Position numbers and translations under genes: made by a program. From an uncultured bacterium (GTDB lineage: Bacteria > Acidobacteriota > Thermoanaerobaculia > Multivoradales > JAHZIX01): a stretch of 64,000 nucleotides of DNA. The notes beneath the pieces were generated by a model that saw only the letters and a list, made by a program, of their open reading frames with translations, did not search any database and was not told where the DNA came from. Every line of letters starts with the position of its first letter. Position 1 is the stretch's first letter. This document shows positions 29,405 to 61,000 of the stretch, one piece after another. The stretch covers positions 200,416-264,415 of the forward strand of contig CBDUPA010000008.1 of the NCBI GenBank assembly GCA_965368975.1, in the 5' to 3' direction.

Positions 29405-32400
29405 TCAGTCTTCCAGCCGCGCCTCGACCTCATCGTCTTCGAGGTCTTCGATCTCCGCCAGCAAGGCTTCCAGATCCCCGTCCTCGGTGCTGTGCACCAT
29501 CTGTGCCTGCAGTGCCTCGACGCGCACGGCCATCTCGGCGATCGTGGGGCCTTCGAAGAGCGCACGCATCGGCACTTCGACGCCGAAGCGGTCGCGGATG
29601 GCGGCGATGAGGCGGCCGGCGAGGAGGGAGTGGCCGCCGAGGTCGAAGAAGTCGTCGTGGACGCTGAGGTTCTGACACTCCAGGAGGTCCTGCCACAGCT
29701 CGGCGAGTGTGCGTTCGGTGTCGTTCCTGGGAGCGATGTGCTGCGGGGCCTCGGCCGCTTCTGCCGCTTCGAGTTCGGCGAGCACAGCGGCGCGGTCGGG
29801 AAGGGCGTTGTTGAGCTGGGGGATGGTGTCGACCTGACGGATCTCGAGATCGCGCAGCTCTGCGGGCAGTTCTGCCGATCCACTGTCGACCGCCTCTGAG
29901 GCGAAGGGCTCGCGCAGCCACTTCTGGAGCACCAGCGGGTCGAGGTGCACCTTCATGCCAGCGAAGGGGGGTGGGGCCGGGGCGACGCAGGCCAGGTGCT
30001 GGACGCTGCCGTCGCGGCGACCACGTGAGACGACGGCGGCGGCCTGGACGGCGGGGTGAGCACACAGGCGGGCTTCCAGCTCGGTGGGTTCGAGCCAGAA
30101 GGATGCCGTGGCCTCCAGAGTTGCGGGCCGCAGCGGCACCTGGTGCAGATCAGTGGCCGGATCGGCGGTGACGGCCCGCAGCAAGACCTCGAAGCGCTGC
30201 AGCAACTCGATCATGCGAGGGGCGTCGAAGAGCGCGGCGTCGTAGTGCAGTTGCAGGTCGAGGCCGGCCGCTTCGCCCTGCTCGGTCTCCAGTTCGAGGG
30301 CGTAGAAATTGAGGTCGAACTTGGAGTCGGGCGCGCCGCTGTCGAGCATCTCGAAGCGGACGCCGGGCAGCTCCATGGGCGACGGCGGCAGGTTGATCAG
30401 GTTGAAGAAGACCTGGAACAACGGTGTGTGGGTCAGCGAGCGCTCGGGATTGAGCTCTTCGACCAGCTTCTCGAACGGGATGTCCTGGTGCGCGTAGGCG
30501 CCGAGAACGCGTTCACGCGTGTCCGCCAACAGCCGGCGGAAGGTGAGCGCTTCCTCGCCCGGACGCAGGTCGGCACGCAGCACCAGGGAGTTGATGAAGA
30601 AGCCGATCAGCGCTTCCGTCTCCTGCTGGGTACGACCGGCGATCGGCGAACCGATGGTGACGTCGAGCTGACCGGACAGGCGACTGAGCAGCAGCTGCAA
30701 GGCGGCCAGGAGCACCATGAAGAGGGTGGTGTCGGTGGCGCGGGCGAGCTGATGCAGGCTTCGTTGCAAGCCAGCGTCGAGACGCAGGTGCCTGCGCCCC
30801 GCGGCTTGGTGGGTGAGCGCTTCCAGGCGCCCGCGTGGATGGTCGGTGGGCAGCAGCAGGCGCGCTGGGGCAGCGTCGAGTTGTGCGCGCCACCAATCGA
30901 GCTTGGTCTGCAGCGTCTCGCCTTGGAGATAGGTGCGTTGCCACACGGCGTAGTCGCCGTATTGCACTGCTAGAGGCTGCAGTGCTTGAGGTTGCAGTTG
31001 CAGGGGCGGCAGGGCGCTGGCGCGATAGAGGGCCGTCAGCTCGCGGTAGAAGACGCCCAACGACCAGCCGTCAGACGCGATGTGGTGGAAGCTGACCAGC
31101 AGCGCGTGCTCGTCGCGCGCGGCGCGCAACAAGAGCAGGCGTAGGACGGGGCTGGTCTCGCCCAGGTGACGTGGCCGGGGCGGGCAGGTGTCGAGGGCGA
31201 ACGGACGGCGGGCCTCGGCTTCGCTCAGACGGTTCTGCTCGCTGCCGCGCTGCTCAGGTGCGAGCCGACTCAGGTCGACGACCGGCAAGGGGATTGCCGC
31301 GGGTATGGAGTACGCAACCTGGACGGCTGCCTCGCCGGTGCCCTGGTAGACGCTGCGCAGGATCTCGTGGCGCTGCACGATGCTGACCGCGGCGCTGGCC
31401 AACTGAGCGACGTCGAGGTGGCCGTGCAAGGCGAACGCACCGGGCAGGTGATACGCGGTGCCGGCGGCGTCGATTTGCTCCAGGAACCACAGGCGGCGCT
31501 GGCCGAAGGAGAGCGGCAGGCCGTGCGGGTAGGCGTCGCGGTCGACGGGCTGCAACGGAGTGCCGAGCTGTTGAGTCTGCTGGGAGTCGGCAGTGCTCTC
31601 CAGCTCACCGCGAAGCGCGTCCGCCAGCTGGGCGACGGTGGCGTTCTCGAACAGGGTGCGCAGCGCCAGCTCGACGCCGAGTTCCTGGCGCACCCTCGAC
31701 ACGACCTGCGTGGCGCGCAGCGAATGGCCGCCGAGGTCGAAGAAGTCGTCGTGGATGCCCAGGCTGGCGGCCGGCCGGTGCAGCACTTCGGCCCACACCG
31801 TGGTGAGGGTGGCTTCGAGGTCGTCGCGTGGTGCCGCGTCGGTGTCGGTGAGAGGGCTGCTGTCCGCCGTGTCCGGCAGGGGCAGGGCGCGGGTGTCGAG
31901 CTTGCCGTTGACGGTCAATGGCAGGGCGTCGAGGTGGAGGAAGACGCTGGGTACCAGGTGCTCGGGCAGGCGTTCGGCCAGCCAGATGCGCAGGTCGTCG
32001 ACGCTAGGTGCCGGTGCCGACTCCAGTGCCGGAGCCGACTCCAGTGCCGGTGCCGACTCCAGTGCCGGTGCCGACGGGCCCAAGCCTTGCTCGGGCACCA
32101 CATAAGCTACCAGCTGTAGGTCGACGCGGCGGCCTTCTTCGGCGGCTTGAAGGTCGATGGGGCGGGCGAGGACGGCAGCCTGGGCCAGCTCTGGATGACC
32201 TGCGAGCACCACCGCCACCTCGTCCGGCTCGACGCGGAAGCCACGGATCTTGACCTGGTGGTCGATACGACCGACGAACTCGATCGCCCCGTCGCCACGC
32301 CGGCGTACCAGGTCGCCGCTGCGGTAGAGGCGGGCTCCAGCAGGCGCATAGGCGACCGAGCCGGCGAGCGGATGGGGCACGAAGACGGCAGCGGTCAGCG

Positions 32401-58000: not shown

Positions 58001-61000
58001 GCGGCAGCGTCGCGGCTAGGCGGCCCGGGGTCTGAGCCTCCATCGAACGGGCTCCGGCCGTCGTCGCGGCCCGATAGAGAGCGCCCAGCTCGCGGTAGAA
58101 GACACTCAGCGACCAGCCGTCGCAGGCGATGTGGTGGAAGGCGAGGAGCAGCGCATGGCGTTCGGGTTCGACGCGCAGCAGCGTTGCCCGCATGACCGGC
58201 CCGAGCTGGCCGTACGTGCCAGGTGCCTTCTCAGCCAGCGGGAAGCGGCGCCGGAAGTCACGTTCGCTGAGCTGTCGCAGCAGTGTCTCGCGCCGGTCGG
58301 CGTCCAGGTCGCTGAGGTCGACCATTGGCAGCACGACGCGCGTGGGCGGCGGTAGCACCACCTGGTGTGCCTCGTCGCCGCGTCCCTGGTAGGCGGTGCG
58401 CAACACTTCGTGGCGGTGCACCACGGCGCCGGCCGCCGCGGCCAGGGCGGGCACCTGCAGCTGCCCGCGCAGGGCGCAGAACGCCGGCATGTGGTAGGCC
58501 TCACCGGCAGCGTCGATCTGCTCCAGGAACCACAAGCGCTGCTGGCCGAAGGACAGCGGCAGCACAGATTCATCTTCACCAGAGCCGTGGTCGGCCGCCC
58601 GTGACGCCGGGATCAGGGCGGGGACCAAGGGCGAGTCGGCGCTCTCCCCGGTGGCTGCCTGTTCGGCCTGGCCGCGCAGCGCTTCGCGCACGACGCCCGC
58701 CAGGTGCGAGACCGTGGGGCCCTCGAACAGCCTGCGCAGCGGGACCTCGACGCCGAACACCTGGCGCAAGCGTGAGATGGTCTGGGTGGCGAGCAGCGAG
58801 TGGCCGCCGAGGTCGAAGAAGTCGTCGTGGATGCGCACGCGCCCGGGACCGCTGCGCGGCCGCTCGAGGAGCTCGGCCCAGATCTCGACCAACGCTTCTT
58901 CCACCGCGTCGCGCGGGGCTACACCGCCGGTGTCCGCCGGACGGCTGGTGCCCTCGATCTCAGGCTGTGGCAGCGCGCGCTGGTCGATCTTGCCGTTGGC
59001 GGTCAGCGGCAGCTCGTCGAGGAAGACGAAGGCGCTGGGCACCAAGTACTCGGGCAGGCGCTCGCCGAGCCAGGCACGCAGCTCGGCGGTATTCAGCAGG
59101 GTGCCGGCCAGGGCGGTGACGTAAGCGACCAGGCGCAGGTCGCGCCCCTTGCCACCGTCTGTGTCCGCGTCTTCCGCCGTGCTATCTGTTGGCGTACTGT
59201 CGGTGGGTGGGCGCCAGGCGATGACTGCCGCTTGTCGCACGCCCGGATGCTCGCTCAGGCGTGTTGCCACCTCGTCTGGCTCGACGCGGAAGCCGCGGAT
59301 CTTGACCTGTTGGTCGACGCGGCCGACGAACTCGATGGCACCATCGCCGCGCCGACGTACCAGGTCGCCGCTACGGTACAGGCGGCTCCCGGCCGCGGCG
59401 CTGAACGGATCGGGAATGAACTTCTCGGCGCTCAACGACGGTCGGTGCAAGTAGCCGCGTGCCAGGCCGTCGCCGCCGGTGCACAGTTCACCCGGTACGC
59501 CGAGTGGCACCAAGTGGAAGCGCGCGTCGAGCACGTGGACGCTCGTGTGCACCAGGGGCTGACCGATCGGCACTGTTGCAGGCATGCTTCCCGCTGGCTG
59601 GAAAGACGTCGCGTCGGTGACCGGGTGCCAGGTGGTGAAGGTGGTGTTCTCGGTCGGGCCGTAGACGTGGTTGAGATGTTGCGGTGGTCCCGCGTCGAGC
59701 ACACGCCGCACGCGCCGTGGGTCGACCGCCTCGCCGCCCCAGTGCAGGTGCCCGAGGCCGGCGAAAGCGTCGGGCACGGCGTCGGCGATACGGTGGAAAA
59801 CGGCGGTGACGATGAACAGGCTGTCCAGACGCAGGCGCCGCAGGGCCCGCGCCAGCTGCGGTGGCGACAGCAGAATCTCCTTGCGGATGCCGACCACCGT
59901 GCCGCCAAGTAGCAGCGGGCCCCACAGCTCGTAGGTGGCGGCGTCGAAGGAGGTGTTGGCGGCCTGACCGATGCGCAGACCTGGCGCGAAGCGCTCATAG
60001 TTCGGTGCCGCGCTGCCCTCCTGGTGTCCCAGAACCAGGCGCGACACGGCTTGATGCGGCACTGCGACGCCCTTGGGGCGGCCGGTCGAGCCGGAGGTGT
60101 AGATGACGTAGGCCAGGGCGTGCGGCGGCACCTCGATCGGTGTGGCTTCGGGGCTTGCCGAGGTCGAGGCAGAGCCCGGGCTCGACGTCGTCGCCAGGGC
60201 CTGTTCCAGCTGCAGGTGCGGTCCTTCTGGCAACGCTGGCAGCCAGGCGCGCGCGGCTACGGCCAGCGGCATGCGGCTGTCCTCGACCATCAGGCGTAGG
60301 CGCTCGGGCGGGTAGTCGGGGTCGAGCGGCAGGTAGGCACAGCCGCTGCCGAGAATACCGAGCAGGGCGGGTAGCCAGTCGATGCCGCGGTGGGCGCACA
60401 GGCCCACCGGCACGTCCGGTGCCAGCTGCAAGCCGGCCTCGGTGGCGCGCTGGCGCAGCGCCCGCGTGATGTTGGCGGCGCGCCGACGCAGTTCTCCGTA
60501 GCTGAGATGCCGGCGACCGTAGACCGCGGCGAGGCTGTCGGGCCGCTGGGCTGCGACCGTCCGGAAGCGAGTGTGTAGCGACGGCCGCGGCGCCAGGTGG
60601 TGCAGCGGATCGTTGGCCTCGCACAGCAGCTGGTGCCGTTCGGCCGCGTCGAGCCACAATAGGTCGAGCACTGGCCGGCCCGGCTGGTCGACGGCGGCCT
60701 GCAGCAGCTGGCCGAAGGCGCGTAGCAAGCGCTGGATGGTGGTGCGATCGAAGAGGTCCGGATCGTACGAGGCGGCTCCGTGCAGCGTGGAGTCCCGTCG
60801 ATGGTCGCTCGGCTGGCCACGTTTCGCGCCCAGGCCTGCGTCTGGAGGCACAGCGTCTTGGTAGACGTGGACCTCGAGATCGAAGCGTGTGGTGTGCAAC
60901 TCTACCGGCAGCGACCGGAGCTCCATGCCTCCCAGCCGCGAGCCCGGCTGAGGCGTGTTCTGCAACGCGAAAGTGACCTGGAACAGTGGGTTGCGCGATA

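What the first reader, a model, noticed from the sequence alone, without database searches (positions are those of the whole stretch)
29405..58560. NRPS subunits end in C-Asub-T modules: A core removed, C-terminal subdomain kept, with one intact sibling module that could load them in trans
Seen in sequence: all three NRPS genes end in a homologous module whose C domain differs from the internal ones (FNL(I/L)NLP, KFDLN(F/L)Y). In 55074-64000 this module has a full A domain. In 45709-55017 (junction about 46445-46500, RRLPLRAIGTTDGG-WLEP) and 29405-45700 (junction about 30090-30135, HQVPLRPATLEATASF-WLEP) the C domain joins in frame to the position just after the A8 hinge, so roughly 400 or more aa of A core are absent. 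The retained Asub lacks the A10 lysine (LPTSRGVVDR and IPQLNNALPDR versus LPRTASGKLDR). All three keep HPAVQAAAVV and an unusual PPP(F/Y)xGMx(V/I)xLD motif (about 29954-29975, 46312-46333, 55593-55613) that I did not see in the other eight A domains. The C-domain HHxxxDG and the T-domain GGHSL serine are intact. Established: A-less or A-inactive modules loaded in trans occur in syringomycin SyrE, albicidin AlbI and cystobactamid CysK. Inference: the shared PLR...WLEP junction points to one old deletion that was duplicated and kept. Asub and its PPPFxGM loop may be a docking platform for an A core or aminoacyl shuttle that places the same residue at every subunit junction. I do not recall this repeated design being described.
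Basis: partly seen in the sequence, partly recalled or inferred. Interest (0 to 1): 0.88.

Follow-up and report, generated by a model that had tools for sequence, protein, structure and literature searches.

The report
NRPS modules with dead adenylation relics
Two giant peptide-synthetase genes end in a module whose amino-acid-activating domain was cut down to a dead stub, so its carrier must be charged by another enzyme domain; this is real and old, but it is a design already known from other synthetases.

Summary
P0002 (45709-55017) and P0001 (29405-45700) end in C, a short linker, a roughly 100-aa relic of the A domain's C-terminal subdomain, T and a docking tail. These modules are 439 and 455 aa shorter than the homologous intact module ending P0003. 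A third copy with the same junction lies on contig C47, and a second intact sibling lies on C23.

The paralogues share only 66-74% of nucleotides and all frames are open. The A-less modules keep 37-41 of 42 invariant C positions and 10 of 10 T positions, but only 6 of 11 Asub positions. Pfam scores the relics below its AMP-binding_C cut-off. So the C and T domains are kept by selection and the relic is half decayed.

The PPPFxGM loop is absent from C23 and C47. The C-domain tree does not support one simple deletion (AU p 0.026).

The most likely mechanism is charging of the carrier by an A domain elsewhere, with the P0003 sibling A (code DPRHFGFQVK) the first candidate. This is unproven.

The kind is known: SidD/Nps6 dA, fimsbactin FbsE/FbsF and capreomycin CmnI. 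This scan has noted similar relic modules on other DNA. Verdict: new member of a known kind, modest interest.

The parts
29405..45700 (-). NRPS gene P0001, 5431 aa: N-terminal docking helix, four C-A-T modules, then C, A relic, T and an acidic docking tail
30173..31501 (-). terminal C domain of P0001 (aa 4734-5176), HHIASDG present
   Evidence: It keeps 41 of 42 columns that are invariant in 19 A-containing modules.
29792..30100 (-). A-domain relic of P0001 (aa 5201-5303). It starts at FWLEP in A8. The A8 Arg is Trp, A9 is degenerate and the A10 Lys is lost.
   Evidence: Pfam AMP-binding_C gives 17.9 bits, below the cut-off of 24.5.
29516..29734 (-). T domain of the P0001 terminal module, GGHSL serine present
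   Evidence: It keeps 10 of 10 invariant T columns.
29408..29515 (-). C-terminal acidic docking tail of P0001
45709..55017 (-). NRPS gene P0002, 3102 aa: docking helix, two C-A-T modules, then C, A relic, T and a docking tail
46525..47886 (-). terminal C domain of P0002 (aa 2378-2831), HHIAFDG present
   Evidence: It keeps 37 of 42 invariant columns. The nearest solved structures are the Txo2 and Txo1 C domains.
46171..46458 (-). A-domain relic of P0002 (aa 2854-2949). It starts at GWLEP. The A10 Lys is replaced by Val.
   Evidence: Pfam AMP-binding_C gives 15.9 bits. It is modelled as a folded helix/strand unit.
45853..46083 (-). T domain of the P0002 terminal module
45712..45852 (-). C-terminal acidic docking tail of P0002
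55074..63998 (-). NRPS gene P0003, 5' part cut by the contig end: (C)-A-T, C-A-T, C-A-T and a docking tail
   Evidence: The probable 5' part is on contig C18.
57147..58544 (-). terminal C domain of P0003, sibling of the two above
55743..57107 (-). rest of the C-A linker plus the A core of the intact sibling A domain. This is the part that is missing in P0002 and P0001. Specificity code DPRHFGFQVK.
55467..55742 (-). intact C-terminal subdomain of the P0003 terminal A domain, A10 Lys present
   Evidence: Pfam AMP-binding_C gives 50.6 bits.
55194..55412 (-). T domain of the P0003 terminal module

Best explanation
P0002 and P0001 each end in a C-dA-T module. This is an ordinary elongation-type condensation domain, the first roughly 10 residues of the C-A linker, a catalytically dead relic of the adenylation domain's C-terminal subdomain, an intact carrier domain and a docking tail.

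Shown:
- The A core, motifs A1 to the first half of A8, is gone.
- The relic has lost the A8 Arg and the A10 Lys and is half decayed.
- The flanking C and T domains are conserved like those of complete modules.

Inferred:
- The module still elongates the peptide.
- Its carrier is aminoacylated by an A domain located elsewhere.
- The first candidate is the single intact paralogue, the terminal A of P0003 (code DPRHFGFQVK). It would act in trans, as SidD A1, FbsF A and CmnA-A1 do.
- The relic serves as a folded spacer between C and T. It is not a docking platform.
For: Architecture:
- Pfam domain counts are and the alignments.
- The modules are 439 and 455 aa shorter than the sibling.

Age and selection:
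- The five sibling modules share 66-74% DNA identity over long matches, with no conversion tract.
- The frames of 5431, 3102 and 3109 codons are all open.
- The A-less modules keep 37, 41 and 40 of 42 invariant C columns and 10 of 10 T columns.
- HHxxxDG and GGHSL are intact.
- The nearest solved C domains are the teixobactin Txo1 and Txo2 elongation domains.

Dead relic:
- It keeps 6 of 11 invariant Asub columns, and the A8 Arg and A10 Lys are lost.
- Pfam AMP-binding_C gives 15.9, 17.9 and 11.8 bits against a cut-off of 24.5.
- Identity in the A9-A10 part is 21-30% in most pairs, against 61% for the intact pair.

Candidate loader:
- DPRH-type codes occur only in the P0003 terminal A and its C23 sibling among the 20 A domains compared.
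- No stand-alone A domain was found in the flanks examined.

Precedent, from passages read:
- SidD/Nps6 dA loaded by A1 (PMC10192304).
- FbsE truncated A, with the FbsF A predicted to load carriers of FbsE and FbsG (PMC11291136).
- CmnI loaded by CmnA-A1 (PMC12400406).
Against: - There is no direct evidence of loading, of expression or of the product.
- T-domain similarity does not single out the sibling. The A-less T domains are 56-60% identical to the P0003 T3 domain but up to 63% identical to an unrelated T domain of P0004. Their LLAGR signature goes with the position before a docking tail, and C23b T2 has it too.
- The C domains of P0002 and C47 sit on long branches (0.65-0.80, against 0.18-0.21 for P0003). 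This could mean relaxed or shifted constraint.
- The C47 copy stands alone on its contig with no sibling A nearby.
- The folded look of the relic in the model is biased, because 19 intact modules were in the alignment.
- The code positions rest on a recalled mapping to PheA.
Confidence: 0.5

Rival explanations
1. The carrier of each relic module is charged by the A domain of the module just upstream in the same protein: A2 of P0002 and A4 of P0001, with codes DAYFHGGTFK and DAYFHGVTFK. That residue would then be incorporated twice, as SidC A3 loads T3, T4 and T5.
For: - The penultimate modules of P0003, P0002 and P0001 carry nearly the same code, so the duplicated cassette spans two modules.
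- Intra-protein loading of neighbouring A-less carriers is documented for SidC (PMC10192304 passage).
- Proximity favours it.
Against: - The terminal C domains form one clade with the C domains of the two intact DPRH modules. This gives no sign of a switch of acceptor substrate.
- The A-less T domains differ from the upstream T domains in helix 2, LLAGR against LLATQ.
Confidence: 0.2
2. The relic modules are charged by a stand-alone A or A-T protein encoded elsewhere in the genome, with or without a shuttling thioesterase. This would be as in WS9326A or, from recall, kutzneride KtzH A* with KtzN.
For: - The genome holds several single A-type frames outside NRPS genes, on C21, C29, C5, C16 and C1.
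- A-less modules served by stand-alone A domains are documented (PMC7539972 passages; PMC10510592 section 5.4.2 passage).
Against: - None lies in the cluster flanks examined.
- Those frames were found with a home-made A-core profile and may be acyl-CoA ligases. None was shown to be of the DPRH type.
Confidence: 0.1
3. The relic modules do not add a residue. They are skipped, only relay the chain, or the subunits are on their way to decay.
For: - The C domains of P0002 and C47 sit on long branches.
- P0002 has lost 5 of 42 invariant C columns.
- There is no TE domain and no proof of expression.
- Subunit order is not fixed by the near-identical docking tails.
Against: - Frames are open over 9-16 kb although the paralogues are only 66-74% identical in DNA.
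- HHxxxDG is intact in all three modules, and 10 of 10 invariant T columns are kept.
- A relay would not need a catalytic C domain.
Confidence: 0.15
4. One reading: the retained Asub with its PPPFxGM loop is a selected docking platform that recruits an A core or an aminoacyl shuttle.
For: - The N-terminal 45 residues of the relic stay at 38-52% identity, close to the C domain level.
- All three relics share Trp in place of the A8 Arg.
- The relic is modelled as folded.
Against: - The PPPFxGM loop is absent from the C47 relic and from the C23 intact sibling.
- The relic lacks the first strand of the A8 hairpin.
- Only 6 of 11 invariant Asub columns are kept.
- Four A-less modules of the same genome have no relic.
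- In a database sample, 18 of 22 relics had lost the A10 Lys, and their boundaries vary.
Confidence: 0.05

Closest known systems
SidD / Nps6 module 2 with truncated A domain (dA), fungal siderophore NRPS
   Same: The module keeps only the C-terminal part of its A domain and is catalytically inactive. Its T domain is loaded by an intact A domain of another module (PMC10192304, passage read).
   Different: It is fungal and loading is within one protein. About 290 aa are missing there, against 439-455 aa here. Here there are three copies on three proteins, always just before a docking tail, and loading is untested.
Fimsbactin FbsE (truncated A) with the FbsF A domain, Acinetobacter
   Same: It is a bacterial multi-protein system. 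One embedded A domain is predicted to charge carriers on two other proteins, one of which keeps a truncated A domain (PMC11291136, passage read).
   Different: It is a small siderophore pathway with cyclisation domains and has no repeated cassette at subunit ends. There too the loading is a prediction.
Capreomycin CmnI with CmnA-A1
   Same: An A-less module is charged in trans by the A domain of another module, and this was shown experimentally (PMC12400406, abstract and passages). The CmnI C domain is among the solved relatives of the terminal C domain here (E 1.3e-31).
   Different: No A relic was reported in the passages I read. Those passages describe an N-terminal extension of CmnI as important for the contact with CmnA-A1.
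WS9326A Cal19 A-less C-PCP module with stand-alone A domains Cal22 and Cal23
   Same: It is a C-T module without an A domain inside a bacterial NRPS (PMC7539972 passages; PMC10510592 passage).
   Different: The loaders are separate A(-T) proteins with shuttling enzymes inside the cluster. None was found in the flanks here.
Kutzneride KtzH C-A*-T with stand-alone KtzN
   Same: It is a bacterial module with a truncated A* domain complemented in trans.
   Different: I could not read the papers, which were not held. The loader there is a stand-alone A domain.

Membership tests
NRPS module with truncated A domain (C-dA-T / C-A*-T) | Condensation domain with the catalytic HHxxxDG motif | tested here: met
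   HHIAFDG is at P0002 aa 2521 and HHIASDG at P0001 aa 4872. The modules keep 37-41 of 42 invariant C columns. Pfam Condensation matches.
NRPS module with truncated A domain (C-dA-T / C-A*-T) | A-domain remnant that lacks the core motifs needed for adenylation | tested here: met
   There is no AMP-binding hit in the terminal modules. 439 and 455 aa are missing. The modules keep 1-2 of 34 invariant linker and A-core columns. The A10 Lys is lost.
NRPS module with truncated A domain (C-dA-T / C-A*-T) | Carrier domain with the phosphopantetheine serine | tested here: met
   GGHSL is at aa 3015 and 5355. PP-binding scores 57.8 and 68 bits. 10 of 10 invariant T columns are kept.
NRPS module with truncated A domain (C-dA-T / C-A*-T) | Carrier charged by an A domain located elsewhere | not testable with these tools
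   This needs an in vitro loading assay or product analysis. A candidate A domain is present at 55743-57107.
Pfam AMP-binding_C (PF13193) for the relic | Score at or above the curated cut-off of 24.5 bits | tested here: not met
   The relics score 15.9 bits (P0002), 17.9 bits (P0001) and 11.8 bits (C47), and only the first 23-54 profile positions match. The intact P0003 subdomain scores 50.6 bits over positions 1-76.
A-less module served by stand-alone A / A-T plus shuttle (WS9326A, SyrE/SyrB1/SyrC type) | Stand-alone A or A-T gene, or an aminoacyl-transferase gene, in the cluster | tested here: not met
   Pfam of 28 flanking frames on the window, C18, C47 and C23 was scanned. It found a kinase, an AstE/AspA-like protein, an S9 peptidase, a stand-alone C domain, a FabH-like protein and others, but no AMP-binding protein. 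Small frames under 150-250 aa were not scanned.

The most novel reading that the evidence does not exclude
One embedded A domain, the DPRH-type A at the end of P0003, is a shared loader for relic modules on three different proteins, including the orphan NRPS gene on contig C47. The near-identical docking tails and heads let these subunits be joined in more than one order, so the same unusual residue marks every subunit junction. The relic, with its invariant Trp in place of the A8 Arg, is kept because it positions the carrier for this trans loading.
Probability: 0.1. Interest if true: 0.6.

Novelty: new member of a known kind. Interest (0 to 1): 0.3.

Why it matters
Predicting a product from an NRPS cluster assumes one A domain per module. 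Relic modules break that rule and are easily misread as pseudogenes or assembly errors.

This locus gives a clean natural series in one genome: two intact siblings and three A-core-less siblings. They are old enough (66-74% DNA identity) to show which parts stay under selection (C and T) and which decay (the A9-A10 half of the relic).

It also shows that the deletion removed the stretch between two points: the start of the C-A linker and the A8 hinge. That may be of use to people who engineer NRPS by exchanging A cores.

The series is a convenient test bed for trans-loading by an embedded A domain in a bacterial multi-subunit synthetase. It is not a new principle.

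Tried and rejected
- Reads: no sequencing run was listed for the junction, so coverage and junction reads could not be checked. No RNA holder was listed.
- Close orthologues for a dN/dS test: none was found.
  - Among 40 relatives, the only contiguous match besides G000 was G002:C6 (35% identity, query 6-660). It turned out to be two A-less modules with a different relic, from the A6-A8 region.
  - Genome contigs gave at best 48% identity (L059).
  - Metagenome contigs gave at best 43% identity.
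  - The paralogues are too diverged for dS.
- Exhaustive profile search and word-based search: the rankings were dominated by giant multi-module NRPS through summed scores, so no census of the design was possible. I could only pick out contiguous matches. These were P0009 and P0108, and 4 of the 120 rows listed with at least 86% query coverage. I then scanned the 254 retrieved proteins with home-made domain profiles. This sample is biased towards the query.
- T-domain similarity as a pointer to the loading A domain: not discriminating.
- Gene conversion as the cause of the odd tree: no high-identity DNA tract was found. Old conversion cannot be excluded.
- Structure model: the relic looks folded, but the alignment held 19 intact modules, so this is weak evidence. 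I did not run a fold search on it.
- Complex prediction was not used. An A core with an Asub-T unit would probably be assembled by likeness to solved A-T structures, and the controls could not separate the sibling A from the other A domains.
- Kutzneride KtzH/KtzN papers: not in the library, so this is cited from recall only.
- Searches for print descriptions of relic modules at several subunit ends of one bacterial synthetase found none. They cover open-licence papers only, and supplements were closed.
The coordinates of the parts were worked out by hand.
- My first estimate of about 495 missing residues was wrong. It is replaced by 439 and 455.

Full report
**What is there**

The window is the last 64 kb of contig C8 of a 7.1-Mb draft genome of 59 contigs. 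Three long minus-strand frames fill 29405-63998: P0001 with 5431 aa, P0002 with 3102 aa, and P0003 with 2974 aa, cut by the contig end.

Pfam gives these counts:
- P0002: 3 Condensation, 2 AMP-binding, 3 PP-binding and 2 AMP-binding_C stretches.
- P0003: 2, 3, 3 and 3 of the same.
- The last 831 aa of P0001: only Condensation and PP-binding at E <= 0.01.

Motif look-ups and alignments show that all three proteins end in a homologous module. In P0003 it is C-A-T.

In P0002 and P0001 the C domain is followed by about 10 residues of the C-A linker and then directly by the xWLEP of motif A8. That is the start of the C-terminal subdomain of the A domain. From C start to T end the modules measure 678 and 662 aa, against 1117 aa for P0003, so 439 and 455 aa are missing.

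The A8 arginine is tryptophan, A9 is degenerate and the A10 lysine is lost.

**Beyond the window**

- A 49-bp exact overlap and a 16-residue protein overlap link the C8 end to the end of contig C18. C18 then runs on for 118 bases of other sequence, so the join is probable but not proven.
- C18 adds the N-terminal C domain of P0003, an upstream three-module NRPS (P0004) and a stand-alone C domain.
- No TE domain and no stand-alone A domain was found in 28 flanking frames scanned with Pfam.
- The genome is very rich in NRPS genes.
- Two more members of the terminal-module family lie elsewhere:
  - An intact one ends a four-module gene on C23.
  - A third A-core-less one, with the same junction (RWPEP), ends a 3109-aa gene that stands alone on the 14.9-kb contig C47.

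**Is it an artefact or recent decay?**

It is neither.
- The five sibling modules share only 66-74% DNA identity over their long matches. The highest short match is 87.5% over 56 bp.
- The same in-frame junction therefore stands in three well-diverged loci on two contigs.
- Reads could not be consulted.

**What is under selection**

I took the columns that are invariant in 19 A-containing modules of these clusters and counted how many the three A-less modules keep:

| Region | Invariant columns kept |
|---|---|
| C domain | 37, 41 and 40 of 42 |
| T domain | 10 of 10 each |
| Asub | 6 of 11 each |

Identity by region:

| Region | A-less pairs | Intact pair |
|---|---|---|
| C domain (all pairs) | 43-62% | – |
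| T domain (all pairs) | 49-67% | – |
| First 45 residues of the relic | 38-52% | 60% |
| A9-A10 part | 21-30% in most pairs | 61% |
| A-T linker (all pairs) | 18-33% | – |

Pfam scores the relics at 15.9, 17.9 and 11.8 bits for AMP-binding_C. The cut-off is 24.5 and the intact P0003 subdomain scores 50.6.

An AlphaFold model of the P0002 module has mean pLDDT 78.8. It draws the relic as a folded helix/strand unit, but 19 intact modules were in the alignment, so this says little.

The terminal C domain is closest to the teixobactin Txo1 and Txo2 elongation C domains.

Reading: C and T are kept as working parts. The relic is a half-decayed vestige whose first half may still be needed for folding or spacing.

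**The special motifs**

- PPP(F/Y)xGM is found only in the three C8 genes. It is absent from the C23 intact sibling and from the C47 relic. It is therefore a lineage mark of this cluster and not a feature tied to the loss of the A core.
- The LLAGR signature of the T domains goes with the position before a docking tail. It also occurs in C23b T2, which follows a normal A domain.

**History**

The shared junction and the shared Arg-to-Trp change argue for one deletion.

Yet the C-domain tree is (C47,(C23a,(P1,P2,P3))), with the P1-P2-P3 clade starred at 99/98. The AU test rejects a clade of the three A-less modules, p 0.026.

The remaining possibilities are old homogenisation inside the C8 cluster or repeated deletion at the same domain boundaries. 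I cannot tell which.

**How common is this?**

- In this genome my home-made domain profiles find seven A-less modules. Three have the relic, with a C-to-T gap of 147-158 aa. Four are plain C-T, with a gap of 65-98 aa, on C16, C7, C2 and C3.
- In 254 large NRPS proteins retrieved by the two database searches, 68 of 1272 C-started modules lack most of the A core. This sample is biased towards my query.
- Of those, 22 modules in 13 proteins keep an Asub piece. One of the 13 proteins is this genome's own C47 protein. Only 4 of the 22 keep the A10 lysine. They include Streptomyces proteins and metagenome proteins, with varying boundaries.
- In 80 loci from species-representative genomes, 2 of 85 complete modules were of this kind, one from Actinocorallia and one from Pyrinomonadaceae.
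- Earlier notes of this scan describe similar relic modules in other genomes.

**Mechanism**

A catalytic C domain and a serine-bearing T domain, kept over long divergence, imply that the module still condenses. So its carrier must be aminoacylated by another A domain.

The cluster holds one paralogue of the lost domain, the terminal A of P0003.
- Its ten-residue code reads DPRHFGFQVK, and the C23 sibling reads DPRHVGAQI-. The positions were mapped from recall of PheA.
- No other of the 20 A domains compared has a DPRH code.
- A DPRHLALLAK code was predicted as 2-aminoadipate for zeamine Zmn16 A1 (PMC3547906, Table 2 passage). DPRH codes are listed for Asn and an AMA moiety in a survey (PMC12283262 passage). 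The substrate here is open.

Precedents:
- SidD A1 loads T1 and the T2 domain behind a truncated dA (PMC10192304 passage).
- The FbsF A domain is predicted to load carriers of FbsE, which has a truncated A domain, and of FbsG (PMC11291136 passage).
- CmnA-A1 loads the A-less CmnI (PMC12400406 abstract and passages).

I put trans-loading with the P0003 sibling as first candidate at 0.5. The rivals are the upstream neighbour A at 0.2, a stand-alone A elsewhere at 0.1, and a non-elongating or decaying module at 0.15. The docking-platform version stands at 0.05.

**Verdict**

The design belongs to a known kind, so this is a new member, of modest interest. It is useful mainly as a natural series of intact and A-core-less siblings in one genome.

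Noticed in passing
window 63998 (contig end); L001:17911-19998 (C18 end): P0003 is cut by the end of contig C8. The end of C18 carries an N-terminal docking helix, a C domain and the start of an A domain. It overlaps P0003 by 16 residues and 49 exact bases, then runs on for 118 bases of unrelated sequence ending in a stop. The two contigs probably join.
   Followed up: partly
L001:7769-18115 and L001:6128-7531 (C18): Upstream of P0003 lie a three-module NRPS (P0004) and a stand-alone 467-aa condensation domain. P0004 ends in a GGTSL carrier and a basic Arg/Gln-rich tail instead of the acidic docking tail. No TE domain was seen anywhere in the locus.
   Followed up: partly
N-termini of P0001 (45620-45700) and P0002 (54940-55017); tails at 29408-29515, 45712-45852, 55077-55193: The docking heads and the acidic docking tails of the subunits are nearly the same in P0001-P0004, C47, both C23 genes and further genes on C1 and C16. 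The docks alone hardly specify the order of subunits.
   Followed up: no
L017:3734-13093 (contig C47): An orphan three-module NRPS gene with both a docking head and a docking tail and a relic terminal module. It is flanked by a BNR/sortilin-like gene and a pilin-like gene, with no other NRPS gene on the 14.9-kb contig.
   Followed up: partly
window 36633-36702, 32008-32075, 51766-51841, 51050-51112, 52834-52894; L017 relic: Short in-frame tandem repeats of 9-18 bp sit inside NRPS loops, including the Asub loops of A domains and the C47 relic. They give runs of 3-6-residue peptide repeats.
   Followed up: partly
L018 (G002:C6:180001-200000), minus strand: A relative of the same family has two consecutive A-less modules inside a frame of more than 6000 aa. 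Their relics come from the A6-A8 region and not from Asub, so this is an independent deletion of another shape.
   Followed up: partly
window 22945-25347, 25850-26875, 26936-29374 (+ strand): Just downstream of P0001, on the other strand, lie three genes: an S9/DPP-IV-type peptidase, an AstE/AspA-like deacylase and a Ser/Thr kinase with an Lcl_C domain. Whether the peptidase or the deacylase matures or releases the peptide is open.
   Followed up: no
P0001 third C domain (about window 38000-38150): The third C domain of P0001 has HHIATDAW, with Ala instead of Gly in HHxxxDG.
   Followed up: no
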